Part shown: positions 1 through 58,286 of the stretch, in pieces
Layout of the letters: each line of letters starts with the position of its first letter
How positions within the stretch are numbered: the stretch's first letter is position 1
Source of the DNA: an uncultured Gemmatimonadaceae bacterium
GTDB taxonomy: Bacteria > Gemmatimonadota > Gemmatimonadetes > Gemmatimonadales > Gemmatimonadaceae
Direction of reading: 5' to 3'
DNA length: 64,000 nucleotides
Assembly (NCBI GenBank): GCA_963781585.1
Contig: CAWAGQ010000010.1
Location: 128,001 to 192,000, forward strand
Program-made: the position numbers and the translations under genes
The notes under the pieces: model-generated
The model's input: the letters and a program-made list of their open reading frames with translations, nothing else
Told to the model about the DNA's origin: nothing
Databases searched by the model: none

Positions 1-284
1 GCCTAACGTGTCACTCGACCGTGGGGTGGGGCATCAATCCCCACGGCCCCGGATTCGACGCGGCGCGGATGGCGAAGGTCGCCGCGCCCATGTGTCTCGC
101 CTGTCACCTGCAGGTGCCGGGTCGTTCACCGTAGCCGTGGATTGACGGCGCCTTCGGGGTGGTGCCCGCTGGTCGCAGCGGGCATTTCCCTTACGTCGTG
201 CCGGATTCTTGCGGACTGACCGAGGACAAGTCGACAACCAGACTGGGGCGCATGTCCCGGACCCGTCCGCAAACGGAGGCGCCC

Positions 285-851
285 ATGATTCGAGTGCGCG
301 ACATCATGACCCCGCACGTCGTCACGCTCGCGGCTGATGCCACACTGCGTGACGCGGTCGACACGCTGGTGACGTGCCGCATAGGCGGAGCGCCGGTACT
401 GGAACGCGGGAAGGTCGTGGGCGTGCTCTCGGCGCCTGACGTGCTGGAGTTCGAGTCCGTGAATCCGATCGAGGAAATGCGTGACGAGGAGGAGGACGAC
501 AGCAGTTTCAGTCCAGCGTCGGAATGGGACGAGGGGGCCGAGGCTCCGTCCGCATTCTTCACCGATCTGTGGACCGACGATGGGTCTCCGGTCTCCGAGC
601 GGTTCCAGTCCACCCGTGGCCCTGAATGGGACTTCCTGGCGGACCATAGCGTCGGCGAAGCGATGACGCGCTCCGTCTGCACGGTCCCGGGCGCCCTCGA
701 AGTGTCCCTGGCGGCTCAGCGGATGCTTGCCGCTGGCGTGCAGCGGGCCCTCGTTACCTCCCACGGCAAGCTCGTCGGCATCCTGACCACAACCGACATC
801 TTGCGCGCGGTCGCCGAGCGCCGCCTGAGCGAGGGCGCTCCAGTCGGCTGA
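285..851 (+). CDS. CBS domain pair protein
   Basis: VRDIMTPHVVTL...GAPV...VVGVLS and VGEAMTRSV...LVGILTTTDIL CBS repeats; GGAGG RBS before ATG 285. Confidence 0.9.
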   Translation: MIRVRDIMTPHVVTLAADATLRDAVDTLVTCRIGGAPVLERGKVVGVLSAPDVLEFESVNPIEEMRDEEEDDSSFSPASEWDEGAEAPSAFFTDLWTDDGSPVSERFQSTRGPEWDFLADHSVGEAMTRSVCTVPGALEVSLAAQRMLAAGVQRALVTSHGKLVGILTTTDILRAVAERRLSEGAPVG

Positions 852-912
852 GTGGACGGCGGCTGGTTGACGTACAGGACCGCCGATCCCCGGGACCACG
901 CATCGAGCCGAT

Positions 913-5429: not shown

Positions 5430-6124
5430 CCGGCATCCTCATCGTGGAAGACAACGAGACCCTCGCACTGGGCCTCCGTGGAAACCTCGCGTTCGAGGGA
5501 TACGACGTCCTCGTGGCGCACGACGCGACCGCCGGGCTGCGCCAAGTCCGCGAGCACCGCCCCGATCTCATCATCCTCGACCTGATGCTCCCCGACCGGG
5601 ACGGCTATCGGGTGCTCCGCGAGTTGCGGGAGGCCGGTGATGCGACCCCCATTCTGGTCCTCACTGCGTTAGGCAGCGAGGCCGACAAGGTGCGCGCGTT
5701 CCGGTTTGGGGCGGACGATTACGTGACGAAGCCGTTTGGCATCATGGAGCTGCTCGCACGCGTCGACGCGCTGCTGCGCCGAGCGACAAACGGACGCGGG
5801 TCCCGCGCATCGGCGTCTCCCGCCATCGCGTTCGGCGACGTGCGCATTGACCCGGCCACGCGCACGGCGACGCGCGGGGGCGCGGACGTGGCGCTGCGAC
5901 CGCGGGAGTTCGACCTGCTGCTCGCCCTCGCACGGCGACAAGGACGCGTGGCCGGACGCGCCGAACTGCTGCGCGAAGTCTGGGGATACGACGATTCGGT
6001 CCTGAGCCGGACAGTGGACACCCACATCTCGGAGCTCCGGCGGAAGCTCGAGCGTGATCCGGCCGATCCCCGGCACATTCTCACCGTGCTCAAATCCGGA
6101 TACCGCCTGCGGCTCGATCCATGA
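5426..6124 (+). CDS. OmpR-family response regulator
   Basis: ILIVED, LIILDLMLP, DDYVTKPF, winged helix RTVDTHISELRRKLE; GTGA overlap with HK. Confidence 0.95.
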   Translation: MTGILIVEDNETLALGLRGNLAFEGYDVLVAHDATAGLRQVREHRPDLIILDLMLPDRDGYRVLRELREAGDATPILVLTALGSEADKVRAFRFGADDYVTKPFGIMELLARVDALLRRATNGRGSRASASPAIAFGDVRIDPATRTATRGGADVALRPREFDLLLALARRQGRVAGRAELLREVWGYDDSVLSRTVDTHISELRRKLERDPADPRHILTVLKSGYRLRLDP

Positions 6125-6298: not shown

Positions 6299-7759
6299 AT
6301 GACCCTGTTCACGAAACGATCGGTCGCCGAGCTGCAGGTGGAAGCGGACCGTGGCATCCTCCGCCGGTCGCTTGGCCCGATGCACCTCACGGCCCTCGGC
6401 ATCGGGTCCATCATCGGCACGGGCATCTTCGTGCTCACCGGAACCGCCGCGTCGCAGAACGCAGGTCCGGCCCTCGTGATATCGATGGTCATCGCCGCCA
6501 TCGGCTGTGCGTTCGCAGGCCTCTGCTACGCCGAGCTCGCGTCGATGATCCCGGTCGCGGGCAGCGCCTACACCTATGCCTACGCGACGATCGGTGAGCT
6601 GTTCGCGTGGATCATCGGATGGGACCTCATCCTTGAATACGCCCTCAGCGGCTCCACGGTGGCGGTGGGCTGGTCTGGTTACCTCGTGAGCTTTCTCCAC
6701 GGCCTGGGCGTCGACATGCCCGCCGCGTTGACCGCGGCGCCCGGCAGTCCGGTCGTCACGTCCGCCGGCACGGTGACCGCGGTCTTCAATCTCCCGGCAG
6801 CCGTCATCATCGTGCTCGTGTCGTCCCTGCTCACGATCGGGATTCGCGAGTCGGCCGGCACCAACACGGTTCTGGTGGTGATCAAGAGCAGCGTGCTGGT
6901 GCTGTTCGTGGCGGTGGGCGCGGCGTTCGTGCGACGCGAGAATCTCACGCCGTTCGTGCCGCCCAACACCGGGACGTTCGGCGAGTTCGGTCCGAGCGGC
7001 ATCCTCCGCGGCGCGGCGGTCATGTTCTTCGCCTACATCGGATTCGACGCCGTTTCCACCGCGGCGCAGGAGGCGCGCGATCCGCAGCGCGACATGCCCA
7101 TCGGCATCCTCGCGTCCCTGGCCATCTGCACGGTCCTCTACATCGCCGTGGCAATCGTCGTCATCGGCATCGTGCCATATCGGGAACTGAACGTGCCCGA
7201 TCCGCTCGCCGTCGGCATCGACCGCACCGGACTCCTCTGGTTGAGCCCCATCATCAAGGTCAGCGCGCTGTTCGGGTTGTTCAGCACCATCCTGGTCGTG
7301 CTGCTCGGACAATCGCGCATCTTCTATTCCATGAGTCGGGATGGGTTCCTGCCCGACCTGTTCGCCCGCGTCCATCCCCGCTTCCGCACCCCCCATCTCA
7401 GCACCATGGTCACCGGTACGGTCGTCGCGTTAGGCGCGGGACTGCTGCCGCTCAAGCTGCTGAGCCAGCTGGTGAGCATGGGCACGCTGCTGGCGTTCGT
7501 TCTGGTGTGCATCGGCATCGTGGTCCTCCGGAGAACGGCGCCCGCCCTGCCTCGTCCCTTCCGGACGCCAGCCGTCCCATGGATCCCCGCGCTCGGCGCC
7601 CTGATCTGCTTCGTACAGATGCTGGGGCTGCCCTGGGCCACCTGGGAGCGGCTCATCGTCTGGCTGATCGCCGGCCTCGTGCTCTACACGACCTACGGAC
7701 GCCGCCGCGTTGCCGCCCGCCGCACCCCGCGGGAATCGGTCGGCGTCCAGTCTGCCTGA
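6299..7759 (+). CDS. amino acid permease (APC superfamily)
   Basis: GSIIGTGIF, YAELASMIPVAGSAYTY, FFAYIGFDAV; about 12 TM. Confidence 0.95.
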   Translation: MTLFTKRSVAELQVEADRGILRRSLGPMHLTALGIGSIIGTGIFVLTGTAASQNAGPALVISMVIAAIGCAFAGLCYAELASMIPVAGSAYTYAYATIGELFAWIIGWDLILEYALSGSTVAVGWSGYLVSFLHGLGVDMPAALTAAPGSPVVTSAGTVTAVFNLPAAVIIVLVSSLLTIGIRESAGTNTVLVVIKSSVLVLFVAVGAAFVRRENLTPFVPPNTGTFGEFGPSGILRGAAVMFFAYIGFDAVSTAAQEARDPQRDMPIGILASLAICTVLYIAVAIVVIGIVPYRELNVPDPLAVGIDRTGLLWLSPIIKVSALFGLFSTILVVLLGQSRIFYSMSRDGFLPDLFARVHPRFRTPHLSTMVTGTVVALGAGLLPLKLLSQLVSMGTLLAFVLVCIGIVVLRRTAPALPRPFRTPAVPWIPALGALICFVQMLGLPWATWERLIVWLIAGLVLYTTYGRRRVAARRTPRESVGVQSA

Positions 7760-9256: not shown

Positions 9257-10519
9257 TCACCAGAAGACTGTCAGCGACACCGCTGCAACCGCCAACTGAA
9301 TCGCCAGCCCTACGCCGGCCAGACGCTTGAATGGCGACCTGCCGAGAACCTGCGTGAGGACGAGCTTCAGCACGGAGTTAGCGATCACGCCGATGGCAAT
9401 AGCGCGCGCAGCCAGCGGAACGAGGTCGGCTGACGATCCCAGTCGGTTCATCGAAAGCGTCAGGGCGTCCATGTCGGTGAGTCCGAGCACTGCCGCCGAC
9501 GCCAGCACTCCCGCGGCGCCCAGGCGCTGGCGCACCGCGCTGAGCACCATCAGGGAGACCTGAAAAGCAACCGCCATCTTGATGGCCGACCACAGGCGGA
9601 GCGGACTCGACGCATGGTGCTCGGGGGCATCGCGTTTCGTCGGCTCCCATTGGCGCAGGAACGCGTACGCAACCATGGCCACTCCGGCGATCAGGGGCGC
9701 CAGGAAGAACGGAAGGAGCGCGAGGGCGACCCGGTACGACAGGACGCCGCTCAGGACGAGCACGCGCGGGAGCAACACGGTGCAGGCGCCGACCACCCCC
9801 ACCGCCAGACCTTCCGGGGACTGCTCCGCATCATGGCTGGCGCGCGAAAACTGGAAGGCGACCGCGGTCGACGAGATGAGTCCGCCCAGCATGCCCGCCA
9901 CTCCGTACCCTCGTTCCTCCCCCACCGCCTTCCGAGCGAGATAGCCGGCAAAGTTCAGCCCCGAGAACAGCAGGACCACCATCCACAGGGCGCGCAATTG
10001 CACGCCGCCGAACGGGCCGTAGGTGGTGTCGGGGAGGAGCGGCAGCACCACCAGCGCGAGCACGGCGAACTGTGCCGTGGCGCGCATCTCGTGTTCGCCG
10101 ATGCGCGTCGCCGCTGCGCGCACGCGCGCCTTCTCGCTCAGGGCCAGTACCATAACCGCCGTGGCGCCGCCGGCAATCTCGAGGTAGCCGAGCCCGGCCG
10201 CCGCGCCTAACGCGATGACCAGGACCGCGGCCACTTCGGTGGTGGCCTCCACCGCGACGCCGCCGGGTCGTGCGGCGGCCAGGTACGCCGCGACCACCAG
10301 CGTCAGCTCGCCGGCGATGAGCGTGACCCCCAACGCACCCGAACCGGCGGCGACGAGCCACCCGGCCACGCCGGCCGTCCCGCCGAGGAGGAGGAAGGTA
10401 CGGATCCCGGCGAACCGACGATGTGGTCCCGTCGCGTGGCCCGATCGCTCGCGCTCGAGGCCGACCGCGAGTCCGCTCAGCGCGGCGACGGATAGGCGCA
10501 CCACGACCGGATCGATCAC
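9257..10519 (-). CDS. MgtC/SapB family membrane protein with DUF4010
   Basis: GLAVGLERE, FAGIRTF, TTEVA, GGLISSTA, GLTDMDA. Confidence 0.9.
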   Translation of the reverse strand: MIDPVVVRLSVAALSGLAVGLERERSGHATGPHRRFAGIRTFLLLGGTAGVAGWLVAAGSGALGVTLIAGELTLVVAAYLAAARPGGVAVEATTEVAAVLVIALGAAAGLGYLEIAGGATAVMVLALSEKARVRAAATRIGEHEMRATAQFAVLALVVLPLLPDTTYGPFGGVQLRALWMVVLLFSGLNFAGYLARKAVGEERGYGVAGMLGGLISSTAVAFQFSRASHDAEQSPEGLAVGVVGACTVLLPRVLVLSGVLSYRVALALLPFFLAPLIAGVAMVAYAFLRQWEPTKRDAPEHHASSPLRLWSAIKMAVAFQVSLMVLSAVRQRLGAAGVLASAAVLGLTDMDALTLSMNRLGSSADLVPLAARAIAIGVIANSVLKLVLTQVLGRSPFKRLAGVGLAIQLAVAAVSLTVFW

Positions 10520-46022: not shown

Positions 46023-46048
46023 CGTGCTAGCGGAAGTGGCCGCTGCCG

Positions 46049-46498: not shown

Positions 46499-46535
46499 TT
46501 ACAGTATGCGCTAGTAGCTTACCGTATGATGTAAG
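46492..46535 (+). promoter_or_regulatory. sigma70 promoter with operator repeats for the Ubl operon
   Basis: TTGACA(46492)-N17-TAGCTT(46515); TTAC[A/C]GTATG at 46499 and 46519; CTTAC-N8-GTAAG 46518-46535. Confidence 0.7.
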
Positions 46536-46630
46536 TCACCGAAGGCGATCGTATCAAAGATGCACGAAGGCCGACCGGGTGGCAAGGAACTTCAACGTGG
46601 GTTGCGCCGTTCGGCGCGGAGGATTCGAAA

Positions 46631-46942: not shown

Positions 46943-46944
46943 CG

Positions 46945-47283
46945 ATGTCGTTTCCAGGCGAACAGGTGGCGGAGCTGAGCGCGCTATACCCCGGACTCCA
47001 GCAGGCGACGGAGGCCGGGGTGCTCTACTTCTTGATCCCCAGCCTCGCGCTCCCGGCCGGATGTTCCGCGGCAAGCGTGGACGCGCTCCTATGTCCGACT
47101 CAAAGGGAAGGGTACGAATCCCGGCTGTTTCTCTCGAAACAGATTACCTGTGCGGCCACTCGGAATTGGAACGCATCGAACATTCGCGTTCTGGAGCGTA
47201 ACTGGTTCGCGGTATCGTGGAAGACGCGTTCGGGGTTGCGACTCGCGCAGATGGTAAGCGCGCACATCGAGGCGTTTCGCTGA
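46945..47283 (+). CDS. bubB: prokaryotic E2-like protein (BubB-like)
   Basis: YFLIPSLALPAG, DALL.P...GY, RNWFAVSW; between the Ubl and E1 genes. Confidence 0.72.
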   Translation: MSFPGEQVAELSALYPGLQQATEAGVLYFLIPSLALPAGCSAASVDALLCPTQREGYESRLFLSKQITCAATRNWNASNIRVLERNWFAVSWKTRSGLRLAQMVSAHIEAFR

Positions 47284-48689
47284 TGACGATGAGACGAGGT
47301 AGAATAGCGAGGCACGTCGCGCGCGACGCGCACACATACAGCGAGCCCCCCGTCGGCGCCGCGATTCTGCGGATCCCGAACACGATCGCCGACCGAGTTC
47401 GGGACGACCTGCGGCGGCCCCATCGATTCGCGGCGGAGCGCATCGGATTTCTGAGCGCGGCGGTCGGGCCCACTGAGGCCGGCCTCGTGATAGTCGCGGC
47501 GGAGTATTACACCGTCGCCGACGAGCACTACGTTCCCGGGCGTGGAGCCGGTGGTCGCATTGGTGTCCAGGCGATCCGAGAGGCAATGACGCGCGCGATC
47601 GCGTCTGGCCTCGGCATCTTCCATGTGCATCTCCATGAGCACAGCGGGGTCCCGTCGTTCAGCCCCACCGACCGCGCCGAGCAGACGCGCCTCGTGCAGA
47701 GCCTGAACGCTGCCTCTCCAAACCGGCCGCACGGCATGATCGTGCTTAGCGCCGACGGTGCGAATGCTTGGATATGGATGCCTGGCGAGACGGTACCGTC
47801 CGTTCCTGCGCGCCTGGCGTTGGTCGGCTACCCGATGCACTTGGTTGGCGGCGCCACTCGGCGTCGGAACCGCCGAGCGGGCGATCGGTACTCTCGACAG
47901 TCGTTCCTCGGGCCCGAGAGTGAAGAGCAGCTTGGTACCGTTCGGATCGGATTGCTGGGATTCGGCGGCGGCGGGTCACACGTGGGTCAGCAGCTTGCTC
48001 ACCTCGGCGCGGAGAGCGTACGCGTTGCAGATGGTGACCGAATCGACGATTCGAACCTGAATCGGCTCGTCGGTGCGACCGCGGGCGACGTCCGCGCCAA
48101 GCGCCTCAAAGTCGATATCGCAAGGCGCATCGTCTCTGCGGTGAACCAGCAAGCGGACGTCATTACACATGACGGGCCCTGGCAGGAGCGTGCCGACCTG
48201 TTCCGCTCCTGTGACATCCTCGTTGGGTGTGTCGACTCGTTCAAGCAGCGGCAAGAAGCCGAGGTGCTCGCTCGGCGCTTCGCGATTCCATACATCGACA
48301 TTGGCATGGACGTTCATCAGGTCGACGACGATCCGCCGCGCATCGGCGGTCAGCTAATACTGTCGATGCCGGGCGGCCCCTGCATGACCTGTTTCGGATT
48401 CCTCACGCCAGAAAAACTCGCGAGCGAGGCGGCGCGGTACGGCGATGCGGGCGGTCGGCCGCAGGTCGTCTGGCCGAACGGAGTCCTCGCGTCCTCAGCC
48501 GTCGGCGTTATCGTTGATCTCGTGACGGGCTGGACGCGGATGCGAGATCGGATCGTGTACCTCTCGTACGACGGGAATCTTGGGACGCTCACGGATCACG
48601 TTCGCCTGCGCCACCTTCGATGGAGTTCGTGCCCGCACTTTCCGGAGGGCGCGGTCGGGATGCCGCGATTCACGCCAGCGCGAGCGTAG
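47283..48689 (+). CDS. JAB-like peptidase fused to ThiF/E1 adenylation domain (BubCD-like)
   Basis: ERIGF...HLH...SPTD; GFGGGGS, DGD....SNLNR, GCVDS, CMTC, CPH; TGATG coupling. Confidence 0.85.
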   Translation: MTMRRGRIARHVARDAHTYSEPPVGAAILRIPNTIADRVRDDLRRPHRFAAERIGFLSAAVGPTEAGLVIVAAEYYTVADEHYVPGRGAGGRIGVQAIREAMTRAIASGLGIFHVHLHEHSGVPSFSPTDRAEQTRLVQSLNAASPNRPHGMIVLSADGANAWIWMPGETVPSVPARLALVGYPMHLVGGATRRRNRRAGDRYSRQSFLGPESEEQLGTVRIGLLGFGGGGSHVGQQLAHLGAESVRVADGDRIDDSNLNRLVGATAGDVRAKRLKVDIARRIVSAVNQQADVITHDGPWQERADLFRSCDILVGCVDSFKQRQEAEVLARRFAIPYIDIGMDVHQVDDDPPRIGGQLILSMPGGPCMTCFGFLTPEKLASEAARYGDAGGRPQVVWPNGVLASSAVGVIVDLVTGWTRMRDRIVYLSYDGNLGTLTDHVRLRHLRWSSCPHFPEGAVGMPRFTPARA

Positions 48690-48776
48690 CGTAGCGCATT
48701 GGTCCGACGAATCCACTCGCGCTCGACGTACTGACACGCATTTCGTAGCCAACCAGTTTCGAGAGGACAGGCCTGG

Positions 48777-50780
48777 ATGTGGTCCGATAACGAAGCCGAA
48801 ATCGACCTCCTCAATGTTGAACACCTTGTTGGTGCGGTTCTCCGCGTCGTCAGGGATGATCGCCTCGACCCAGTCACGGTCGGTGTATACGGCGACTGGG
48901 GAAGCGGGAAGTCCAGCGTTATCCAGCTACTTCGTCAGCGCATCGCGACGGAGCCGGATCTACTCGCCGTGTACTTCAATGGATGGCGTTTCGAGGGCTA
49001 CGAGGACGCTAAGGCGGCGTTGGCCTCGACCATACTGGAGCAGATCCAAGAGGAAGCGGCGAAGCCGAACGGCGGGAAGTTTGCTCGGGCGAAAGACGCA
49101 GTCGTTGCTGCAGTGAGCGGCCTCTGGGATCGCGTGGACAAATTGCGGTTGAGCAAGCAGGCGCTGACAGTCGGTGCAAACGCCGGGCTCGCCGCTGGAG
49201 CGCTGGCAATCGGCGCTACGGCAGCTGTGCCAGTTACTGCGGCCGCGATCTTCGGCGTCGTGGTCAAGTCATTGCTCCACTCCGGTAAGGAGATCGACGG
49301 CGAGAAGCTCGCCGAACTGATCAAGGAGCGTGAAAAGGCCGAATCGAAGGACCAGCGCGACATGCACGTCTCGGTGCGGGACTTCCACAAGGAGTTCGCC
49401 AAGCTCGTTGCGCAGCTCGGCGTCAAGCGGCTTGTCGTGATAGTTGACGATCTCGACCGGTGCCTTCCGCACAACGTTATCGAGACTCTCGAGGCGATCC
49501 GGCTCTTTCTGGCTGCGCCGAAGACTGCCTTCGTCATCGCGGCCGACGAAGCGCTGATTCGGGAGGCCGTCGGGTATCGGTTTGCTGAACCGACGCCGGT
49601 GCTTGGAGCCGAGGGACGCCCGCGAGCGTCGATCGGAGCGCGTTATCTGGAGAAATTGATCCAGGTGCCAATCCGGGTTCCTCCCTTGTCACGGAGCGAC
49701 CTACACGGGTACCTGAACCTCCTCTTCGCGGAGGAACGGTCCGCGAATGCGGCCAGCTTCGCGCAGCTCGCCGGGCGCGTGCGCAGCGCGTCATCCTACG
49801 ACGTCATCTCGTTCCATCCGGGCAACGCTGAGAATCTCTTGGGAGGGCCGATCAGCGATGACCTCAAGGCGGATTTCGTCTTGGCCGAACAGATAGCTCC
49901 GGTGCTGGCACTCACGGCGGAAGGAAACCCGCGCCAGACGAAGCGGTTTCTCAATGCACTCGTCTTACGGTTGGAGATGGCCCATGCTCGCGGCATGACG
50001 CTTGATCGCCAGGTAGCAGCGAAACTTCTACTTCTCGAATACTTCTTGCCCGAGCTGTTTCGCTCGCTCGCCCTTGAGGTTGCGGCCAACGAGGGGCAGT
50101 CCCCATCACTGGCAGCTCTTGAGGCAGACGCGCGAACGATTGGTACGACTGCGGGCGGCGGTGTGCGAGACGGCGTCGGGACCGGAAGCACCTTCGCGAC
50201 GCAGGCGGCGGCAATGCGGGCAAGCGACCGGTTCCTCACTTGGGTGCGTACGGACCCTGAACTCGGAAATCTGGATTTGCGGCCGTACGTGTATTTCGCA
50301 AGCGAGCGCTACGCGCTGCCCGTCGGTGTGGCGCAGCGATTGAGCCCATCCGGAGCCCGGGCGCTTCAGGACCTGCGCTCAGATAGCGAGGCGCTGCACC
50401 AGAAGGCTGCCGAGGCCGCAACAGGTCTCCCGCTTCCTGAGCTAACCGCAATCATCGGCGAGTTGACTGCCTACGCTCGAACGGGTCGAGTTAACCTCGA
50501 TGAGCGTACGTCACCACTCTCGGCGATGGTCGAAGTCGCCAAGCGCCGCCCTGACGTCGCTCCTGACGTTCTTGCGTCGATTCTCGGCCTGCCATCCGAC
50601 ATGGTGCCGGTTGCGGCTCCGGTGCTCGTAAATGCTCTCGGCAGCGTCGCTGGTATGCGGGACGCCGCGACGAGCGCTCTTGAGACGCTTGCTTCCTCAC
50701 CGAACAAGGCGGTCAAGGCTGCGGCCGAGGGTCGCCTTCGGGCCGTGCGTGACGGGTCAGCCGCGAATCGGGGGCGGTAG
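48777..50780 (+). CDS. qatA: QatA KAP-family P-loop NTPase
   Basis: MWSDNE...DLLN, GDWGSGKSS, VIVDDLDRC, YLEKLIQVP, GNPRQTKRFLN. Confidence 0.9.
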   Translation: MWSDNEAEIDLLNVEHLVGAVLRVVRDDRLDPVTVGVYGDWGSGKSSVIQLLRQRIATEPDLLAVYFNGWRFEGYEDAKAALASTILEQIQEEAAKPNGGKFARAKDAVVAAVSGLWDRVDKLRLSKQALTVGANAGLAAGALAIGATAAVPVTAAAIFGVVVKSLLHSGKEIDGEKLAELIKEREKAESKDQRDMHVSVRDFHKEFAKLVAQLGVKRLVVIVDDLDRCLPHNVIETLEAIRLFLAAPKTAFVIAADEALIREAVGYRFAEPTPVLGAEGRPRASIGARYLEKLIQVPIRVPPLSRSDLHGYLNLLFAEERSANAASFAQLAGRVRSASSYDVISFHPGNAENLLGGPISDDLKADFVLAEQIAPVLALTAEGNPRQTKRFLNALVLRLEMAHARGMTLDRQVAAKLLLLEYFLPELFRSLALEVAANEGQSPSLAALEADARTIGTTAGGGVRDGVGTGSTFATQAAAMRASDRFLTWVRTDPELGNLDLRPYVYFASERYALPVGVAQRLSPSGARALQDLRSDSEALHQKAAEAATGLPLPELTAIIGELTAYARTGRVNLDERTSPLSAMVEVAKRRPDVAPDVLASILGLPSDMVPVAAPVLVNALGSVAGMRDAATSALETLASSPNKAVKAAAEGRLRAVRDGSAANRGR

Positions 50781-50782
50781 CT

Positions 50783-51736
50783 GTGGGCACCTCGACATCC
50801 AATCCAGGACCAATGGGACGCCCGTCGCTGCTACCGCCTTGGGCACCAGCCGCCGACGTCGGGGATGCTGGCGAAGGCGACCACGATCAAGGCGGCCAGC
50901 CGGACGATGGCAGCGCGAACGACGATGGACAGGGTGGAGCCAGTTCCGGTGATGTCGGCGCCGATTCGACCGGCACGGGGAGTGAGGCGGCTGGGCCTCC
51001 GTCGTGGATGTCGGTTCGTCGGCTCGTCGGAGCTGCGGGCTCAGGTCGCGCAGGGGGTCACCGAGGACGCGACAACCTGCATCGGGCGGTGCGGCGCTCA
51101 GTCGGTGCCATGGGCGGGCGCCGCGCAGCGGCGCACAGTGCGGTGGCTGGCCGCCAGACGGCCGGCCGGTTCGCGAGCTTTCTCGCTGGCGTCGCGGCCG
51201 GCGGCGTCGAGGCGGCGGCGGGGGCGCTGGGGATCGCCGAGCACCTCGGCGGAAGCGCGGATGTGTTCCTTCTTCACCTCGCCGACGCGCTTGCGCCGGC
51301 CGGCGCGCTGACGGAGGAAGCGATTGCACGAGACGCAATGGACGCCACGCTGATGGATCTGTATCAGCAGCTCAACATCGATGCCGACGGCGTCGTCGCC
51401 CTCGAGCGATTGTCCGCCGCGATGATGGCAGGGGCACTCGTCCAGTACGTGATCAATTACATCCATGCACGCGTGATCAATGCGCTTGCGGCGCACCTCC
51501 ATGCTTCTTCTTCAACGGTTAGCCGAATCGGAGACGCCGAGCGAACGGCCCGACGGTATATCGAGAGTGTGGTGCGGCAAGACATTGACACAAGCGCCTT
51601 CTTCGGCTCGAACGGTCAGTTACTCGCAGACCGATGGGACGCGGCTGCAGGCCAACGGATCATAAACCGCCTCTTTGAGGAAGCCTATCGAGTGGTTGAA
51701 GCTGGTCTGGCTCAATCACCGAGGGGGAGCGCGTGA
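50783..51736 (+). CDS. qatB: QatB
   Basis: N-terminal MGTS, LLPPWA; position between the KAP NTPase and QueC-like genes. Confidence 0.8.
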   Translation: MGTSTSNPGPMGRPSLLPPWAPAADVGDAGEGDHDQGGQPDDGSANDDGQGGASSGDVGADSTGTGSEAAGPPSWMSVRRLVGAAGSGRAGGHRGRDNLHRAVRRSVGAMGGRRAAAHSAVAGRQTAGRFASFLAGVAAGGVEAAAGALGIAEHLGGSADVFLLHLADALAPAGALTEEAIARDAMDATLMDLYQQLNIDADGVVALERLSAAMMAGALVQYVINYIHARVINALAAHLHASSSTVSRIGDAERTARRYIESVVRQDIDTSAFFGSNGQLLADRWDAAAGQRIINRLFEEAYRVVEAGLAQSPRGSA

Positions 51737-53139
51737 CGGCGCGTACGGCGTCTGCCATCCCGACCTATCGCGTGCTCCTCCGCGCCGGCGCCTCCGACGC
51801 AGCCAGCGTCGTCCCGAAGACGGGCGATATTCTGGTGGGACTCCGCATGGATGGTGCTCCCGGTGACGATGCCTCGCGGGTCGACGAATCGGTTTGGGAT
51901 ACCCTCTGGGCATTTGGATTGCGTCCGTCACAGCACGCCACCGACTTCTTCCGCGTGGCGACAGCGGCCTACTGCGCCGACCTTCTGATCCCGCACGAGA
52001 CCGCATTCGATCGCTGGTCGCGCGCGATCAGCCTGCACGTACCTGTCAGCGATCCGGCGCGTTGGCGCTCGGTCGAGGCGCCGCTTCGCGAAATGCTGGG
52101 CTTCCTCACCGGAGACCATTGGACGTTTGACTTCCGCGCGGTAGCTGTAGCACCACCTACGGGTCATGCGCACTTGCGGGGCCGATATGGCCCCGTCCGC
52201 GCAAGTCGGGTGAGCCTGCTGTCTGGCGGCCTCGATTCCGCCATTGGGGCCGCCGACCTGATCGACGCCGGAGAACAGGTGGCATTCGTTAGCCACAACG
52301 CCAAGAGTGGGGGCGCGGTCTTTTCGAGCCCCTCGCAGCGCGCTGTGCTCGACGTGCTTCGGCCGAGCGGGGTCGTGGGCCAAGTACATCACTTGCGTTT
52401 TCGGGTCAACCCGCCTGCCCCCATCCAAGGGATCACCGCTGCCGTCACGACGACCCGCAGTCGGTCGATCATGTTCTTCGCACTCGGTTTACTCGTGGCA
52501 AGCGCGTTGGACGCTGTTCAGCGCGACGGCCCGATCCCGCTCGTGATCCCGGAGAACGGATTGATTTCACTCAACGTGCCGCTCACGAAGGCACGGCTGG
52601 GAAGCTGGAGCACTCGTACGACTCACCCTCACACACTAGCGACGCTTCGGCTCGTGCTGGCTGGTCTCGGCCTCACGACGCCGCTCGTAACGCCGTATGC
52701 TACTGCGACGAAAGGCGAGGTCCTGGCATCGCTCGTCGCGCGAGGCCGCGAACGGGCAGAATTGCTAACCGCGGTGACTGTCTCGTGTGCCCACCCAAAC
52801 CAGAGCAGATTCTTGGAGCCTGGACGCCGCCAACCCCACTGTGGAACCTGCGTTCCGTGCATCATTCGACGTTCCGCCACGCAGCACGCGGGAATCGATG
52901 ACGCCAGATACAGCTTCAACCTGCCATCTGAGCTCACTGTCCTGCGGCGTGGTCGCGCCGAAGACCCGTCTGCATTCGCATATGCGCTGGCGACTCGTCG
53001 TCGACCGGCCCGGCCGCTCGACATCAACCTGGCCGGCCCTCTGCACGTCGATACTGATAATGACTTGCGCGCCCTTCTGCGGGTATTCGACGCCGGCATG
53101 GATGAGGTTGCGCGGTTTCTGGGCGTCGAAATCCGCTAG
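51733..53139 (+). CDS. qatC: QatC QueC-like protein
   Basis: LLSGGLDS, RSRS..F, PENGLISLN, STRTTHP, TKGE, SCAHP, HCGTCVPCIIRR. Confidence 0.92.
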   Translation: MTARTASAIPTYRVLLRAGASDAASVVPKTGDILVGLRMDGAPGDDASRVDESVWDTLWAFGLRPSQHATDFFRVATAAYCADLLIPHETAFDRWSRAISLHVPVSDPARWRSVEAPLREMLGFLTGDHWTFDFRAVAVAPPTGHAHLRGRYGPVRASRVSLLSGGLDSAIGAADLIDAGEQVAFVSHNAKSGGAVFSSPSQRAVLDVLRPSGVVGQVHHLRFRVNPPAPIQGITAAVTTTRSRSIMFFALGLLVASALDAVQRDGPIPLVIPENGLISLNVPLTKARLGSWSTRTTHPHTLATLRLVLAGLGLTTPLVTPYATATKGEVLASLVARGRERAELLTAVTVSCAHPNQSRFLEPGRRQPHCGTCVPCIIRRSATQHAGIDDARYSFNLPSELTVLRRGRAEDPSAFAYALATRRRPARPLDINLAGPLHVDTDNDLRALLRVFDAGMDEVARFLGVEIR

Positions 53140-53145
53140 CTGCCG

Positions 53146-53946
53146 ATGCCCCCCGCGCCAACCCGGTCGGCCCGCCTCGTCGACACGCATTGCCATGTCG
53201 ACCTCTTCTCCGATCCGGCCGGTGTGGTGCGTGAGACTGAAAAGCACCAGGTCTACACCATCGCGGTAACCAACACACCGTCGGTATTCTCACATCTGTG
53301 CGGAATCATCGGGAACTCCCGATTTGTGCGACCAGCCTTGGGGCTGCACCCGGAGCTCGCACCGCAGCGCCATCGTGAACTGTCGCTCTTCACCGAGTTA
53401 CTTCCACAGACCCGCTACATCGGCGAGGTCGGGCTCGATTATCAGACCACCGCCGAATCCGAGCGTGTCGTGCAGCGACGGGTCCTAACCACCATCGTCG
53501 AGCAGTGCGACGCAGTCGGCGGAAAGATCGTTACGGCGCACAGTCGGCGCGCAGCCGAGGACGTAGTGTCTGCGTTCGGTGAAGGGTTCCGAGGCGCGTA
53601 CATCTTGCACTGGTATTCGGGAGCAGTGCGAACTCTCAAGCGCGCGGTTGCCAACGGCGCGTACTTCTCGGTCAACCCTGCAATGATGCGCTCCGATCGC
53701 GGACGAACGTTGGTGTCTCAGGTGCCGCGAGAGCGCGTACTCACCGAGACGGACGGGCCATTCGTATCCGTCGACGATGCACCAGCGTTGCCATATCAAG
53801 TCCACCTTGTGGTAGACGAGTTGGCGCGACTCTGGGGTGTTTCGCCCGATGAGGCGCGCAGTACCGTGCGCCAGAATCTGTCAGCCGTGCTGCGCGGTCG
53901 CGACGGCCGTTCCGACGGAGGTATCAATGAGCGGGGCGAGCTGTGA
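53146..53946 (+). CDS. qatD: QatD TatD-family nuclease
   Basis: DTHCH, GLHP, IGEVGLD, HSRRA, LHWYSG, ETDGPF. Confidence 0.92.
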   Translation: MPPAPTRSARLVDTHCHVDLFSDPAGVVRETEKHQVYTIAVTNTPSVFSHLCGIIGNSRFVRPALGLHPELAPQRHRELSLFTELLPQTRYIGEVGLDYQTTAESERVVQRRVLTTIVEQCDAVGGKIVTAHSRRAAEDVVSAFGEGFRGAYILHWYSGAVRTLKRAVANGAYFSVNPAMMRSDRGRTLVSQVPRERVLTETDGPFVSVDDAPALPYQVHLVVDELARLWGVSPDEARSTVRQNLSAVLRGRDGRSDGGINERGEL

Positions 53947-55179: not shown

Positions 55180-55509
55180 ATGCCCGACGCCAACGACCTC
55201 CTCCACGGCACGCTCGACGTCCTCGTCCTCAAGACCCTCACCTGGGGACCGATGCACGGCTACGCCATCTCGCAATCGATCGGCGCGCGCACGCGGGGCG
55301 AGCTCGAGATTGTCGATGCTGCACTCTACAAGTCGCTGCATCGGCTCGAGGCCGGCGGGGCGGTGACGGCGGAGTGGGGCGTCTCCGACAACAATCGGCG
55401 CGCCAGGTACTACTCGCTCACGGCAAAGGGGAGGCAGCAGCTGAGAGCCGCCGCCACCACCTGGCACCGGTACGCAGCCGCGGTGGTGCGGGTACTCGGT
55501 TCCGCCTGA
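55180..55509 (+). CDS. PadR-family regulator (acidobacterial type)
   Basis: LLHGTLDVLVLKTL, MHGYAI, LYKSLHRLE, NNRRARYYSLT. Confidence 0.92.
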   Translation: MPDANDLLHGTLDVLVLKTLTWGPMHGYAISQSIGARTRGELEIVDAALYKSLHRLEAGGAVTAEWGVSDNNRRARYYSLTAKGRQQLRAAATTWHRYAAAVVRVLGSA

Positions 55510-55517
55510 GCCGCGCC

Positions 55518-58286
55518 ATGTCGCTTCACGACCATCCGAACATTCCCACCGGGGTGCGGCGCCTTCCCGCGCTCCCGGCCAGCCGATCGCGCCGCGAGCG
55601 CGAGCTGGACGACGAGGTCCGTTTTCATCTCGAGATGTGCATTGCCGATCTCGTCGCCCGCGGCATGAGCGAGGAGGACGCTCGGGCCGAAGCACAGCGG
55701 CGCTTCGGCGATACCGAGGAGCTCAGAGCCTACTGCCAGGGCGTCGAGGTGCCACACCTGCGTCGCATGACATTGCGCGAATGGTTCAGCGATGGGTCCC
55801 TCGCCCCCGCTCGAATGCGCCAGGCGGTTCGTCGCCTGATGCGCGCCCCGGTGTTCACCACCTCCGCGGTGCTCACACTCATGCTCGGTATCGGCGCGAC
55901 CTCGGCGGTGCTCGCGGTCGTCGATCGCGTCCTGCTCCGTCCGCTGCCGTATCCGCGTGCCGGGCAACTCGTCGATCTGTCGCACACGCTCACGATTTCC
56001 GGTCTGGCGTACGTCGATCAGTCGGATGCGACGTACCTGCTGTACCGGCGCGACAATCACGTGTTCAGCGACGTCGGCGCGTATCGGTCGCTCGCGGTGA
56101 ATCTGGCTTCGAACGCCGCTGCCGGATCGGGGGATGGCGCCTCGACGGAGCGACTGCCGGCGGCGCTGGCGACGGCCAGTGTCTTCCGCGTGCTGGGCGC
56201 CGCCGCGCAGCTCGGGCGTGGCCTTCGTGAGGACGACGGCGGTCCCGGCGCGCCCCCGGTGGTGGTGCTGAGTCACGGGCTCTGGCAGCGCGCGTTCGGG
56301 GGCAGTGCGTCGGTGATCGGGACGCGCGTATCCGTCGATGGCGTGCAACGCGACGTGGTGGGGGTGATGCCGGCCGGGTTCGAATTTCCGGAGTCGGGGA
56401 CGTCGCTGTGGATTCCGCTCCCCCTCGATCCGGCACGCACCCGGTCGGCGGCATTCGACTATCGCGGCATCGCGCGCCTGAAACCCGGTGTCACGCTGGA
56501 AGCGGCCCGCGCCGATCTGCAGCGACTGCTCCCGCGCGTGCCCGAAGTGTTTCCGGGTCGGCTCACCGCCGGGGCGATCACGTTGACGCGGATGCAGACG
56601 GTGGTGCGTCCGCTTCGCGATCTTCTGGTCGGCGACGTGCGACGCACGCTCTGGATCGTGCTGGGCGCGGTGGGGACGCTGCTGCTGCTCGCCTGCGCCA
56701 ACGTCGCCAACCTCTTTCTCGCACGGGCCGAAGGGCGCCACCGCGAACTCACGGTGCGGCGCGCCCTCGGGGCCGGCCGCGCCGCGCTCCTCACCGAGTT
56801 CCTGTCGGAATCGCTGCTCGTCTCCGCGGCCGGTGCCGCGTTAGGCATCGCGCTCGCCTCGGCCGGGGTGCGGCTGCTCCGGACCATGGAGTGGGGGGTC
56901 CGGATTCCGCGGCTGGCCGAGGTCCGGCTGGACGCCGCGTCGGTCGGGGTGACGGTGTGCCTGTCACTCCTCGCGGCGTTGGGGGTGGCGGTTGTTCCCT
57001 TTCTGCGCGTCCGCAAGACATCGCCGGCGGCGGCGCTCGTTGCCAGCGCGCCGTCCGCATCCGGTGGACGCACCCGGTCCCGTGCCCGACGGGCCCTCGT
57101 GGTCGTGCAGGTTGCGCTGGCCCTGGTGCTGCTCACCGCGGCCGGCCTGTTTGCACGGAGTTTCGCCCGGCTTCGCTCGGTCGATCCCGGATTCCGCGCG
57201 GATCACGTGCTGACGTTCCGGGTGGCGCTGCCCGAGGCGCTCTATCCGGACGCGGGCGATGCCGCGGCGCTCATCCTTGGCGCGCTGGACAGTATCGGTG
57301 CGCTCCCCGGTGTGGAGGCGGCCGGTGTCATCACGACGCTTCCGCTCGATCAGGAGACCCGACAGGACAGCGCGGTGTGGGTGGAGGATCATCCCGATCC
57401 AACGAGCCGCACCCTGCGCATTCATCAGATGCTGTTCGTGACCTCCGGGTATTTCCACGCGATGCGGATTCCCCTGGTGGCGGGTCGACTGTTCGCACGG
57501 CCGGAGCCGGCACTCGATGTCGGTCAGATCCCCCGCGAAGTCATCGTGAGCAAGGCATTCGCCGAGCGGTACTGGCCCGGGGGAAGCGCCATCGGAAAGC
57601 GGGTTCGCATGAATCCGGTCGATCCGTGGTCCACGATCGTCGGCGTGGTCGGTAACGTGCGCGACGATGGCCTGGACCGCCCGCCCACGGAATCGGTCTA
57701 CAATCCGCTGGTGGTGGCGAGTGTGACGGGCGCGGCGTGGTCCCCGCGGAACGTCGCGTTCGCGGCGCGGGCGCGCGGTGAGGAATCGTCGATTGCGGCG
57801 CCGATCGAGCGGGTGGTGCAGCGCCTGGCCCCGTCGCTGCCGGTGTACCGGATGATGCTGGCTGGCGCGCTGGTGTCGCGTGCGGTGTCGCGCACCACGT
57901 TCACGCTCCTGCTCCTCGGCCTGGCGGCGGTGATGGCGGTGACGATCGGAGCGGTCGGGATCTACGGCGTGATTGCCTATCTGGTGAGCTTGCGCGCGCG
58001 CGAGATGGGCGTGCGACTCGCGCTCGGGGCGCGCCCGCTGGACGTCCGCCGGCTGGTGACGCGTCAGGCGCTGGGCGACGCCGCGCTCGGCATCGGCGCC
58101 GGACTGGTCGCGGCGGCGGCGACCACGCGCGTGCTGGTCACCCTGCTGTTCGGAGTGCGTCCCCTGGATCCGATCGCGTTAGGCAGCGCGGCGGCGTTGC
58201 TGCTGATCGCCGCGCTGGCGGCGAGCTGGCTGCCCGCCCGCCGGGCGGCGCGGCTGGATCCCGCGAGCGTGCTGCGCCTGGAATAG
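55518..58286 (+). CDS. duplicated orphan ABC permease (MacB/FtsX x2, ADOP type)
   Basis: ELDDEVRFHLEM permease prefix, LACANVANL, REMGVRLALGA, PARRAARLDP. Confidence 0.9.
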   Translation: MSLHDHPNIPTGVRRLPALPASRSRRERELDDEVRFHLEMCIADLVARGMSEEDARAEAQRRFGDTEELRAYCQGVEVPHLRRMTLREWFSDGSLAPARMRQAVRRLMRAPVFTTSAVLTLMLGIGATSAVLAVVDRVLLRPLPYPRAGQLVDLSHTLTISGLAYVDQSDATYLLYRRDNHVFSDVGAYRSLAVNLASNAAAGSGDGASTERLPAALATASVFRVLGAAAQLGRGLREDDGGPGAPPVVVLSHGLWQRAFGGSASVIGTRVSVDGVQRDVVGVMPAGFEFPESGTSLWIPLPLDPARTRSAAFDYRGIARLKPGVTLEAARADLQRLLPRVPEVFPGRLTAGAITLTRMQTVVRPLRDLLVGDVRRTLWIVLGAVGTLLLLACANVANLFLARAEGRHRELTVRRALGAGRAALLTEFLSESLLVSAAGAALGIALASAGVRLLRTMEWGVRIPRLAEVRLDAASVGVTVCLSLLAALGVAVVPFLRVRKTSPAAALVASAPSASGGRTRSRARRALVVVQVALALVLLTAAGLFARSFARLRSVDPGFRADHVLTFRVALPEALYPDAGDAAALILGALDSIGALPGVEAAGVITTLPLDQETRQDSAVWVEDHPDPTSRTLRIHQMLFVTSGYFHAMRIPLVAGRLFARPEPALDVGQIPREVIVSKAFAERYWPGGSAIGKRVRMNPVDPWSTIVGVVGNVRDDGLDRPPTESVYNPLVVASVTGAAWSPRNVAFAARARGEESSIAAPIERVVQRLAPSLPVYRMMLAGALVSRAVSRTTFTLLLLGLAAVMAVTIGAVGIYGVIAYLVSLRAREMGVRLALGARPLDVRRLVTRQALGDAALGIGAGLVAAAATTRVLVTLLFGVRPLDPIALGSAAALLLIAALAASWLPARRAARLDPASVLRLE

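What the first reader, a model, noticed from the sequence alone, without database searches (positions are those of the whole stretch)
1..58184. Over-represented octamer CGTTAGGC in host DNA, often via rare codons, not found in the island
Seen: exact CGTTAGGC/GCCTAACG at 1, 5667, 7428, 10205, 13017, 15408, 16535, 18366, 23971, 29179, 35051, 36572, 40441, 56839 and 58177. One-off variants sit at 4210, 18253, 20613, 23541 and 35434. In genes it is mostly read as TTA-GGC (Leu-Gly), although TTA is otherwise very rare in this host. It also occurs as CCT-AAC, GTT-AGG, a CGT-TAG stop and intergenically, so it is independent of frame and strand. A rough mononucleotide estimate at about 68% GC (assumed, not computed) gives about 2 copies per window; I count 15. 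I found none in 41.4-54.1 kb. Inference: a DNA-level signal, such as a Chi-like site, uptake sequence, HIP-like/methylation-driven motif or nucleoid-protein site, that also distinguishes self from recently acquired DNA.
Basis: partly seen in the sequence, partly recalled or inferred. Interest (0 to 1): 0.72.

Follow-up and report, generated by a model that had tools for sequence, protein, structure and literature searches.

The report
Hyper-abundant integron-core DNA word, Gemmatimonadaceae
This soil bacterium and many of its relatives have written one 8-letter DNA word, the same word that integron gene cassettes use as their recombination core, hundreds to thousands of times through their own genes but not into recently acquired DNA, which points to an undiscovered system that reads the word.

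Summary
CGTTAGGC occurs 15 times in the window (0.95 expected) and 1442 times in the 5.7-Mb genome. It is the most over-represented octamer there: about 40-fold over a synonymous-codon shuffle on the sense strand and 12-fold on the antisense strand. 764 of 1392 TTA codons lie inside it.

It acts at the DNA level. It has no replication-strand bias, is spaced more evenly than chance, and thins out in atypical DNA. The motif-free stretch of the window is a QatABCD defence island.

Across 401 family genomes the trait is all-or-nothing by lineage (up to 7821 copies; often under 50) and changed state at least 5 times. In four species only 77% identical in DNA, 9 of 13 sites are identical.

New here: the core, (C)GTTAGGC, fits the integron integrase core site GTTRRRY. 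In motif-poor relatives the word sits mainly in attC sites of cassette arrays.

Rejected: Chi/KOPS, RecBCD/AddAB, a C5-methylase-Vsr fusion and two N6-methylases. Integron integrase, pilins and ComEC occur in rich and poor genomes alike.

Best reading: a kin tag kept by a transmission bias in DNA exchange, like uptake sequences or HIP1.

The scan has noted hyper-abundant words in viruses and phages, but not this word.

The parts
1..8 (-). exact copy, antisense GC-CTA-ACG in the gene running in from upstream
5667..5674 (+). exact copy, GCG-TTA-GGC (Ala-Leu-Gly) in response-regulator gene 5426-6124
7428..7435 (+). exact copy, GCG-TTA-GGC in amino-acid permease gene 6299-7759
10205..10212 (-). 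exact copy, GCG-TTA-GGC in sense of the minus-strand DUF4010/MgtC gene 9257-10519
13017..13024 (-). exact copy, intergenic between histidine kinase and response-regulator genes
15408..15415 (+). exact copy, TCG-TTA-GGC (Ser-Leu-Gly) in MlaD-like gene 14531-15535
16535..16542 (+). exact copy, TCG-TTA-GGC in PAS/GAF histidine kinase gene 15538-17460
18253..18373 (+). 121-nt inverted pair, ACCTAACG ... CGTTAGGC (exact copy at 18366-18373, read antisense as G-CCT-AAC-G). It lies inside the UbiE-like methyltransferase gene 17959-18699. It is attC-like only in its two ends.
   Evidence: DNA fold -38.8 kcal/mol, z -3.0, 1 of 200 shuffles as good.
23971..23978 (+). exact copy in the rare frame C-GTT-AGG-C (Val-Arg) in gene 23576-24415
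29179..29186 (-). exact copy, read as G-CCT-AAC-G relative to my weak gene call 28958-29323
35051..35058 (+). exact copy, antisense G-CCT-AAC-G (Pro-Asn) in minus-strand gene 33903-35132
36572..36579 (+). exact copy, antisense G-CCT-AAC-G in ABC ATPase gene 35784-36689
40441..40448 (+). exact copy supplying the CGT-TAG stop of the PD40-repeat gene 39541-40446
41285..53946 (.). motif-free, lower-GC (62-66%) defence island. It holds QatA 48777-50780, QatB 51089-51736, QatC 51733-53139 and QatD 53146-53946. It also holds an HmaA N-terminal fragment 44218-44952, CapP/CapH-like genes 44949-46498 and an E1-E2-like gene 47217-48689.
56839..56846 (+). exact copy, GCG-TTA-GGC in MacB/FtsX-type permease gene 55518-58286
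58177..58184 (+). exact copy, GCG-TTA-GGC in the same permease gene

Best explanation
CGTTAGGC (core GTTAGGC, with a preferred C in front) is a genome-wide double-stranded DNA tag. It is written wherever the coding sequence tolerates it and kept there actively.

I think the most likely keeper is a transmission bias in DNA exchange among kin, a molecular drive of the kind described for the uptake sequences of Pasteurellaceae and Neisseriaceae and now proposed for cyanobacterial HIP1. Under that model, DNA fragments carrying the word are taken up or recombined more often. Alleles that gain the word therefore spread, alleles that lose it are replaced, one copy per fragment is enough, and foreign DNA lacks it.

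The word fits the integron integrase core site.

Shown: the word is real, acts at the DNA level, is conserved, evenly spaced, lineage-specific and fits the attC core pattern.

Inferred: that the force is a transmission bias.
For: Abundance:
- About 40-fold (sense) and 12-fold (antisense) over a codon-preserving null.
- 15% of [SPTA]-Leu-Gly and 24% of x-Pro-Asn-[VADEG] sites in this genome are written as the word. In the denser genome G061 the figures are 33% (90 of 269) and 51% (54 of 106).
- 107 copies supply a stop codon.

Strand symmetry:
- 724 copies on + and 718 on -.
- Intergenic copies: 90 on the leading strand and 92 on the lagging strand.
- Neighbour orientation is unbiased.

Diminishing returns at short range:
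- 68 gaps under 500 bp against 174 +/- 12 under a null that draws from the potential sites. 211 gaps under 1 kb against 327 +/- 14.
- The same is seen in G061: 17 gaps under 200 bp against 37.7.
- Independent site-by-site conversion cannot give this.

Effect on proteins: the Pro-Asn tripeptide stands at 1.30 per 1000 residues in G061 against 0.53-0.70 elsewhere, 2.4 times its reverse. Uptake sequences roughly double their encoded tripeptides (PMC2817400, abstract and passages).

Depletion in atypical DNA and in a defence island. This parallels uptake sequences (PMC2817400 abstract; PMC7811141 passages).

Active maintenance:
- 9 of 13 sites are identical in four species with 77% DNA identity, against 4.8% of phase-matched octamers, p = 8e-10.
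- At the invariant V-P-L-G-A of RpoC, 10 of 16 rich genomes read CCG-TTA-GGC and one reads CCG-TTA-GGT. All 11 poor genomes read CCG-CTC or CCG-CTG followed by GGN.

A dialect-like difference: position 1 is strict in this genome (C 1442 against 149 others) and loose in G061 (C 249, G 51, A 51, T 41).

Import machinery exists: type IV pilus genes and ComEC in 43 of 43 panel genomes.

Integron link:
- In poor relatives the word is the R' box of attC hairpins in cassette arrays.
- It fits GTTRRRY (PMC10127599 passages).
- An integron integrase was found in 225 of 401 family genomes.
Against: - No reader was found. Pilins and ComEC are present in rich and poor genomes alike.
- Integron integrase is not tied to richness: 12 of 23 rich against 16 of 20 poor in the panel. 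By my hand tally it is 76 of 113 against 145 of 278 at family scale.
- Competence has not been shown for this phylum. My searches found no paper on it.
- The trait is scattered on two gene trees: 8 parsimony changes, at least 5 forced by well-supported branches. That needs repeated loss, or repeated gain of the same word.
- The two synonymous one-step intermediates to TTA are not enriched: CGCTAGGC 0.40 and CGTTGGGC 0.75 of expectation.
- Inverted pairs of terminator type, common for uptake sequences, are nearly absent. One pair shows a visible stem among the 20 pairs closer than 200 bp.
- Continued biased repair, or direct selection for a structural role, would also give conserved sites.
Confidence: 0.4

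Rival explanations
1. Reader of integron-integrase type. The dispersed copies are single R boxes bound, and perhaps cut and rejoined, by IntI or a related tyrosine recombinase. That activity spreads or keeps them. Possible routes are conversion of near-cognate secondary sites by strand swapping with attC cores, or use of the sites as exchange points for incoming DNA.
For: - The 7-letter core fits GTTRRRY exactly and has the length of an R box.
- Local attC sites carry (C)GTTAGGC as R' and GCCTAAC as R''.
- Of the GTTA-type words that fit GTTRRRY, only GTTAGGC is abundant: 1591 copies against at most 202.
- Integrases are common in the family: 225 of 401 genomes.
- A ubiquitous conserved reader would explain why separate lineages carry the same word.
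Against: - The integrase is present in 16 of 20 poor panel genomes, some of which (G019, G021) also carry cassette arrays, without any dispersal.
- No intact integrase was found in high-quality rich genomes such as G104 (99% complete), G060 (97%) and G194 (95%).
- Flanks of dispersed copies are not conserved. I found only 2 attC-like hairpins in this genome.
- Genome insertion by IntI needs only GWT (bioRxiv 10.1101/2022.09.11.507474, passages).
- Thousands of good sites inside essential genes should be dangerous with an active integrase.
- Local conversion does not explain the even spacing.
Confidence: 0.25
2. HIP1-like word: the target of a methyltransferase, a repair bias or a nucleoid-structuring protein, kept by direct selection on chromosome biology rather than by DNA exchange.
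For: - Hyper-abundance, conservation at orthologous sites and patchy lineage distribution resemble HIP1 (PMC5861425 abstract).
- A large Eco57I/MmeI-like enzyme of the type that reads asymmetric words is conserved in 30 of 30 genomes tested.
Against: - The word is not a palindrome.
- The only C5 methylase here, fused to Vsr, lies in a motif-free stretch. A relative of it was found in only 13 of 42 panel genomes, and in none of G009, G052, G060 or G061.
- No PF01555 or Dam-type methylase was found in this genome, which is 93.5% complete.
- The 450-residue methylase was found with high similarity in only 1 of 5 genomes tested.
- The tree of the Eco57I-like protein follows the species tree and needs 8 trait changes.
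- Independent local conversion is contradicted by the spacing.
- HIP1 itself is now argued to serve transformation (PMC13756078, abstract and Discussion).
Confidence: 0.15
3. Chi-like or KOPS-like polar signal for RecBCD, AddAB or FtsK.
For: - It is a non-palindromic octamer enriched in core DNA.
- Its orientation correlates weakly with GC skew in 20-kb windows (Spearman 0.20).
Against: - The weak skew is explained by gene orientation. Sense to antisense is 2.4 to 1 in both co- and contra-oriented genes, and intergenic copies are 90 against 92.
- RecC was found in 3 of 43 panel genomes and not in this one.
- By my hand tally, an AddAB-type nuclease domain was found in only 18 of 113 rich genomes.
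- The size of the excess far exceeds what I recall for Chi.
Confidence: 0.03
4. By-product of protein motifs, codon usage or a dispersed repeat element.
For: Most genic copies fall in one frame and encode Leu-Gly.
Against: - The codon-preserving shuffle fails by 12- to 40-fold.
- Antisense, stop-codon and intergenic copies exist.
- Flanks carry almost no information.
- Poor relatives encode the same peptides with ordinary codons.
Confidence: 0.01

Closest known systems
DNA uptake sequences: USS of Pasteurellaceae (9-letter core) and DUS of Neisseriaceae (10- to 12-letter), with their dialects
   Same: - A short non-palindromic word at 0.25 to about 1.3 copies per kb.
- Both orientations are equally common.
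- Strong reading-frame preference.
- Enrichment of an encoded tripeptide.
- Rarity in acquired DNA.
- Relatively even spacing.
- Shared by related genera, with small differences at the edge of the word.
   Different: - Uptake bias is untested and no receptor is known.
- Many genera of the same family lack the word entirely and show no substitute word (2 of 2 poor genomes sampled).
- Close inverted pairs of terminator type are almost absent.
- The word uses a codon that is otherwise very rare.
HIP1 (GCGATCGC) of cyanobacteria
   Same: - An octamer over-represented by tens to hundreds of fold.
- Conserved at orthologous sites.
- Patchy across a phylum.
- Function long unknown, and now linked by correlation to type IV pilus and competence genes.
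   Different: - HIP1 is a palindrome recognised by known methylases. This word is asymmetric, and no methylase tracks it.
- HIP1 periodicity is reported at 10-90 kb. Here I measured repulsion at under 1 kb.
Integron core site GTTRRRY (R' box of attC and attI) and inverse core RYYYAAC
   Same: - The abundant 7-letter core fits the pattern exactly.
- It is the very word used by attC sites of cassette arrays in relatives of the same order.
   Different: - Dispersed copies lack the L boxes, the hairpin partner, the same-strand array and the neighbouring integrase that define attC or attI sites.
- They lie in frame inside conserved core genes.
Chi and KOPS (polar chromosome words)
   Same: Non-palindromic octamers enriched in core DNA.
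   Different: There is no replication polarity, the excess is far larger, and the enzymes that read Chi were mostly not found.

Membership tests
DNA uptake sequence (USS/DUS) | Competent cells take up DNA carrying the word in preference to DNA lacking it | not testable with these tools
   Needs an uptake or transformation assay. No report for this phylum in my searches.
DNA uptake sequence (USS/DUS) | Hundreds to thousands of genomic copies, far above expectation, in both orientations | tested here: met
   1442 copies (724 on +, 718 on -) against about 50 expected. Up to 7821 in relatives.
DNA uptake sequence (USS/DUS) | Reading-frame bias and enrichment of encoded tripeptides | tested here: met
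   762 of 1134 genic copies fall in one frame. Pro-Asn tripeptide is 2.4-fold over its reverse in G061. Leu-Gly tripeptides are not clearly enriched.
DNA uptake sequence (USS/DUS) | Under-representation in recently acquired DNA | tested here: met
   0.09 against 0.30 per kb by codon nativeness. None in the Qat defence island.
DNA uptake sequence (USS/DUS) | Relatively even spacing | tested here: met
   68 gaps under 500 bp against 174 +/- 12 expected.
DNA uptake sequence (USS/DUS) | A dedicated receptor in the uptake machinery (ComP in Neisseria) | tested here: inconclusive
   Pilins and ComEC are present but equally so in poor genomes. No candidate tracks the trait.
DNA uptake sequence (USS/DUS) | Frequent close inverted pairs acting as terminators | tested here: not met
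   One pair with a visible stem among the 20 pairs closer than 200 bp. Density in convergent spacers is only 0.38 per kb.
HIP1-type iterated palindrome | Palindromic word | tested here: not met
   CGTTAGGC and GCCTAACG differ.
HIP1-type iterated palindrome | A cognate methyltransferase recognising the word or its core | tested here: inconclusive
   Three methylases of this genome do not track the trait. Methylation itself could not be read.
HIP1-type iterated palindrome | Conservation of sites between diverged genomes | tested here: met
   9 of 13 sites against 4.8% of controls.
Chi site | Orientation bias with the direction of replication | tested here: not met
   Intergenic copies 90 against 92. 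The sense bias is equal in co- and contra-oriented genes.
Chi site | Presence of RecBCD or AddAB to read it | tested here: not met
   RecC in 3 of 43 genomes. AddAB-type nuclease domain in 18 of 113 rich genomes by my tally.
Integron attC / attI site | Core word fitting GTTRRRY | tested here: met
   GTTAGGC.
Integron attC / attI site | Imperfect hairpin with R''-L''...L'-R' boxes | tested here: not met
   Flanks of the 1442 copies are unconserved. Only 2 hairpin candidates in the genome. The feature is met in the arrays of G021 and G019.
Integron attC / attI site | Same-strand array beside an integrase gene | tested here: not met
   No array beside the integrase at contig 7, 185858-186859. Dispersed copies lie on both strands.
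REP / MITE-type dispersed repeat | Conserved sequence beyond the core | tested here: not met
   Relative entropy at most 0.29 bit at flanking positions.

The most novel reading that the evidence does not exclude
In motif-rich Gemmatimonadales the whole chromosome is punctuated, about once per gene, by single integron R boxes at positions conserved between species. These would serve as docking or exchange points for incoming kin DNA. An integrase-like recombinase, or an uptake receptor with the same specificity, would swap or import the segments between two boxes. The core genome would then behave as a very large, open cassette system, and the cell would preferentially fish integron cassettes out of environmental DNA.
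Probability: 0.1. Interest if true: 0.95.

Novelty: new variant of a known kind. Interest (0 to 1): 0.8.

Why it matters
Hyper-abundant DNA words are known from only a few groups: the uptake sequences of two proteobacterial families, and HIP1 of cyanobacteria. Their origin is still argued over.

This case adds a third, in a little-studied soil phylum, with three useful properties:
- Sister lineages, even within one genus, either have thousands of copies or none. That makes the responsible gene findable by comparison.
- The word is asymmetric.
- The word fits the recombination core of integron cassettes, which are very common in this family. That suggests an unexpected link between genome-wide tags, natural DNA exchange and integrons.

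It also has a practical side. The word is a simple marker of native against acquired DNA in these genomes.

Tried and rejected
**Chi or KOPS.** Rejected on polarity and on the enzymes.

**Inverse link with AddAB/RecBCD.** In my 43-genome panel it looked striking: 3 of 23 rich against 15 of 20 poor, Fisher p = 5e-5. Only 4 independent pairs exist on the tree, so the sign test is not significant. At family scale, by my hand tally, it shrinks to 18 of 113 rich, 5 of 10 intermediate and 85 of 278 poor. AddAB also coexists with the word in three rich genera. I dropped it as a cause.

**C5 methylase fused to Vsr** (contig 7, 477177-478676). Found in 13 of 42 panel genomes and not in most rich ones.

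**Other methylase families.** No PF01555 or PF02086 match in this genome, which is 93.5% complete.

**Eco57I/TaqI-type 450-residue methylase.** High similarity in 1 of 5 genomes.

**Eco57I/MmeI-like 1076-residue protein.** Present in 30 of 30 genomes. Its tree follows the species tree.

**ComEC.** Present in 43 of 43 panel genomes.

**Three pilins.** Homologues in all 5 genomes tested, rich and poor.

**Integron integrase.** Common in both classes.

**An alternative word in poor genomes.** None in a 200-kb sample of G063 or a 135-kb sample of G343.

**Giant repetitive gene as the source of the regular same-strand copies in G021.** No tandem repeat and no open frame of 1000 residues or more. 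They are attC sites.

**Orientation-specific repulsion of neighbours.** None.

**Cassette array beside this genome's integrase.** None seen.

**Literature.** The exact octamer as a whole word: 0 papers. The 7-letter word: 2 papers, neither on abundance. Gemmatimonad plus uptake sequence: 0 papers.

**Rows left out of the trees.** G001, G002 and G011 were dropped from the RpoC tree because only fragments were recovered. G201, G002 and G007 were dropped from the second tree because their matches were split or partial.

**Caveats.**
- My gene calls come from a home-made caller (4735 genes, 86% coding).
- The classes rich (250 copies or more), intermediate (100-249) and poor are my own cut-offs. 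I counted them by hand.

Full report
**1. The observation**

CGTTAGGC or its complement occurs 15 times in the window, at exactly the coordinates given. Dinucleotide shuffles predict 0.95 and never gave more than 3 in 100 trials. The five one-off variants are also there and all keep GTTAGG.

The window is G000 contig 10, 128001-192000. The assembly has 5.72 Mb in 17 contigs at 67% GC.

Genome-wide there are 1442 copies, 724 on + and 718 on -. Expected numbers are 217 (base composition), 89, 44 and 51 (Markov orders 1 to 3). It is the top octamer of the genome by z-score, and its overlapping neighbours fill the next ranks.

Positions outside the eight letters carry almost no information: at most 0.29 bit, with 'not C' before the word and G or A after it. 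So this is a bare word and not part of a longer repeat.

**2. It acts on DNA, not on protein or RNA**

I called genes with a home-made codon-model caller (4735 genes, 86% coding). The copies fall as follows:

| Class | Copies |
|---|---|
| xCG-TTA-GGC, sense | 762 |
| G-CCT-AAC-G, antisense | 273 |
| GC-CTA-ACG, antisense | 66 |
| C-GTT-AGG-C, sense | 33 |
| Between genes or across a gene end | 308 |

The two frames that would put TAG or TAA in frame are empty inside genes. They are used at gene ends instead: 66 CGT-TAG stops, and 41 GCC-TAA stops out of 371 TAA stops in all.

764 of 1392 TTA codons lie in the word. A further 150 lie in two one-off forms.

Shuffling synonymous codons within each gene keeps the inflated TTA count, yet gives only 20.2 +/- 4.2 sense and 27.3 +/- 5.2 antisense copies. 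Observed are 797 and 341.

15% of all [SPTA]-Leu-Gly tripeptides and 24% of x-Pro-Asn-[VADEG] sites are written as the word.

**3. Polarity, spacing and native DNA**

- Orientation follows the gene strand only. Sense to antisense is 2.4 to 1 both in genes co-oriented and in genes counter-oriented with the GC skew. Intergenic copies are 90 leading against 92 lagging. The weak raw correlation with skew is therefore a gene-orientation effect.
- Copies repel each other at short range. There are 68 gaps under 500 bp where a null drawing from the real potential sites gives 174 +/- 12, and 211 under 1 kb against 327 +/- 14. There is no preference for direct or inverted neighbours.
- Density rises from 0.09 per kb in the least native tenth of genes to 0.30 in the most native quarter. 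It rises from 1.1 to 4.1 per 10 kb across GC classes.
- The motif-free part of the window is a defence island. It holds QatA-D (PADLOC E-values 1e-113 to 1e-16), an HmaA N-terminal fragment, CapH/CapP-like regulators and an E1-E2-like gene.

**4. Relatives**

The best relatives of one window protein are indeed Gemmatimonadaceae and Gemmatimonadales metagenome-assembled genomes, at up to 66% identity.

In 401 genomes of the family (77 genera), copy number is consistent within lineages and bimodal. Whole genera carry 700 to 7821 copies, and others carry 5 to 50. By my hand count with my own cut-offs, 113 genomes are rich (250 copies or more), 10 are intermediate and 278 are poor.

One genus is split: six species with 3244-4141 copies and eight with 4-66.

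In a sample of 301 genomes of the phylum, enrichment appears only in this order. It is seen in the family itself and in one genus of a second family. One genome of a third family of the order, G030, was seen rich in the first scan of relatives. Nothing is seen in nine further families.

Two poor genomes were sampled, 200 kb and 135 kb. Neither has a substitute word.

On an RpoC tree of 28 genomes, the rich/poor label needs 8 changes, and at least 5 are forced by well-supported branches. The label is no more clustered than shuffled labels. A second gene tree gives the same picture.

**5. Maintenance**

A 20-kb syntenic stretch was aligned for four rich species of the split genus, which share only 76-77% DNA identity. 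Of 13 sites in G061, 9 are identical in all four species. Only 4.8% of phase-matched octamers are (p = 8e-10). The poor sister species has unrelated letters at those places.

In rpoC, at an invariant V-P-L-G-A:
- 10 of 16 rich genomes read CCG-TTA-GGC, and one reads CCG-TTA-GGT.
- All 11 poor genomes read CCG-CTC or CCG-CTG followed by GGN.

In the dense genome G061 (0.9 copies per kb):
- A third of the Leu-Gly sites and half of the Pro-Asn sites are converted.
- The Pro-Asn tripeptide itself is about doubled.
- The first letter is loose: C 249, G 51, A 51, T 41. The core is therefore GTTAGGC.

**6. The integron link**

In poor genomes of a neighbouring family, the few copies lie on one strand at 480-760 bp intervals. 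These are neither a giant gene nor a tandem repeat.

Each copy ends a conserved element that folds as a typical attC hairpin. It has GCCTAAC at one end and (C)GTTAGGC at the other. In two cases the copies lie on the same contig as an integron integrase match.

GTTRRRY is the integrase core and secondary-site motif (PMC10127599, passages). That GTTAGGC is its textbook consensus is my recollection only.

In this genome GTTAGGC has 1591 copies, while the other GTTA-type words fitting the pattern have at most 202.

Integron integrases above the curated score were found in 225 of 401 family genomes. They do not track the trait. In the panel it is 12 of 23 rich against 16 of 20 poor. By my tally at family scale it is 76 of 113 against 145 of 278.

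This genome's integrase (contig 7, 185858-186859) has no array beside it. Only two attC-like hairpins with the word exist in the genome, one of them at window 18253-18373.

Insertion of cassettes into genomes needs only GWT (bioRxiv 10.1101/2022.09.11.507474, passages).

**7. Readers tested and not found**

- Present everywhere, so uninformative: ComEC and three pilins.
- An apparent inverse link with AddAB/RecBCD in my panel did not hold at family scale.

**8. Reading**

Four properties together argue against independent local conversion:
- a large excess that overrides codon choice even in rpoC;
- strand symmetry;
- short-range repulsion;
- strong conservation at orthologous sites, with absence from acquired DNA.

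They argue instead for a force that acts on segments of DNA and saturates with one copy per segment. The known force of that kind is biased transmission during DNA exchange, as described for uptake sequences (PMC2817400 and PMC7811141, passages). The same idea has now been proposed for HIP1 (PMC13756078, abstract and Discussion; the bioRxiv preprint 10.1101/2024.09.10.611283 I saw only in a search listing).

I put this at 0.4. Within it, the fit to the integron core suggests an integrase-like specificity, or an import system tuned to cassettes. A direct role of an integrase-type recombinase is the main rival (0.25), and a HIP1-like methylation or nucleoid role is next (0.15). Chi-like and artefact readings are rejected.

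**9. Novelty**

I found no paper holding the octamer as a whole word. None links the 7-letter word to genome-wide abundance. None links this phylum with uptake sequences.

The kind of thing is known. This instance is new in its host group, its asymmetry, its on/off pattern between sister lineages and its fit to the integron core pattern.

Noticed in passing
window 48777-53946: A complete QatABCD anti-phage system (QatA KAP NTPase, QatB, QatC QueC-like, QatD TatD-like). It lies in a lower-GC island with no copy of the word.
   Followed up: yes
window 44218-46498 and 47217-48689: A 244-residue fragment matching only the first 230 of 1176 positions of the HmaA helicase. CapP/CapH-like regulator genes and an E1-E2 (ThiF)-like gene lie beside it. 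These look like remnants or parts of further defence systems.
   Followed up: partly
window 18253-18373: A 121-nt inverted pair of the word (one end is a one-off variant) inside a UbiE-like methyltransferase gene. It folds better than 199 of 200 shuffles. It is one of only two attC-like hairpins with this word in the genome.
   Followed up: partly
G000 contig 7, 172353-174657 and 182952-185256; contig 13 near 309021-309851: Copies of a module led by a 301-residue tyrosine recombinase. On contig 7 the full module (recombinase plus 389- and 76-residue genes) is present twice, beside the integron integrase gene, and an exact copy of the word follows the recombinase stop codon in both copies. On contig 13 only a third, identical recombinase match was seen.
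   Followed up: no
G000 contig 7, 477177-478676 (L081): A C5 DNA methyltransferase and a Vsr mismatch endonuclease in one open frame. It lies inside a 24.6-kb stretch with no copy of the word.
   Followed up: partly
G000 contig 6, 144469-147699 (L140): A 1076-residue Eco57I/MmeI-like methylase-type protein. It is conserved as a single-copy core gene in all 30 genomes tested across three families, which is unusual for a restriction-modification enzyme.
   Followed up: partly
G000 contig 5, 313-326 kb and contig 8, 318-331 kb: Two stretches with the same run of gene sizes, including a pilin gene. This is a duplication, or two strains in one bin (contamination estimate 7.2%).
   Followed up: no
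L235 (G021 contig 95, 1-20000) and L236 (G019 contig 3, 1-9000): Chromosomal integron cassette arrays with cassettes of about 500-750 bp and very uniform attC sites, in genomes that otherwise lack the word.
   Followed up: partly
family-wide: Integron integrase genes above the curated score in 225 of 401 Gemmatimonadaceae genomes. From memory, this is a much higher share than is usual for bacteria.
   Followed up: no
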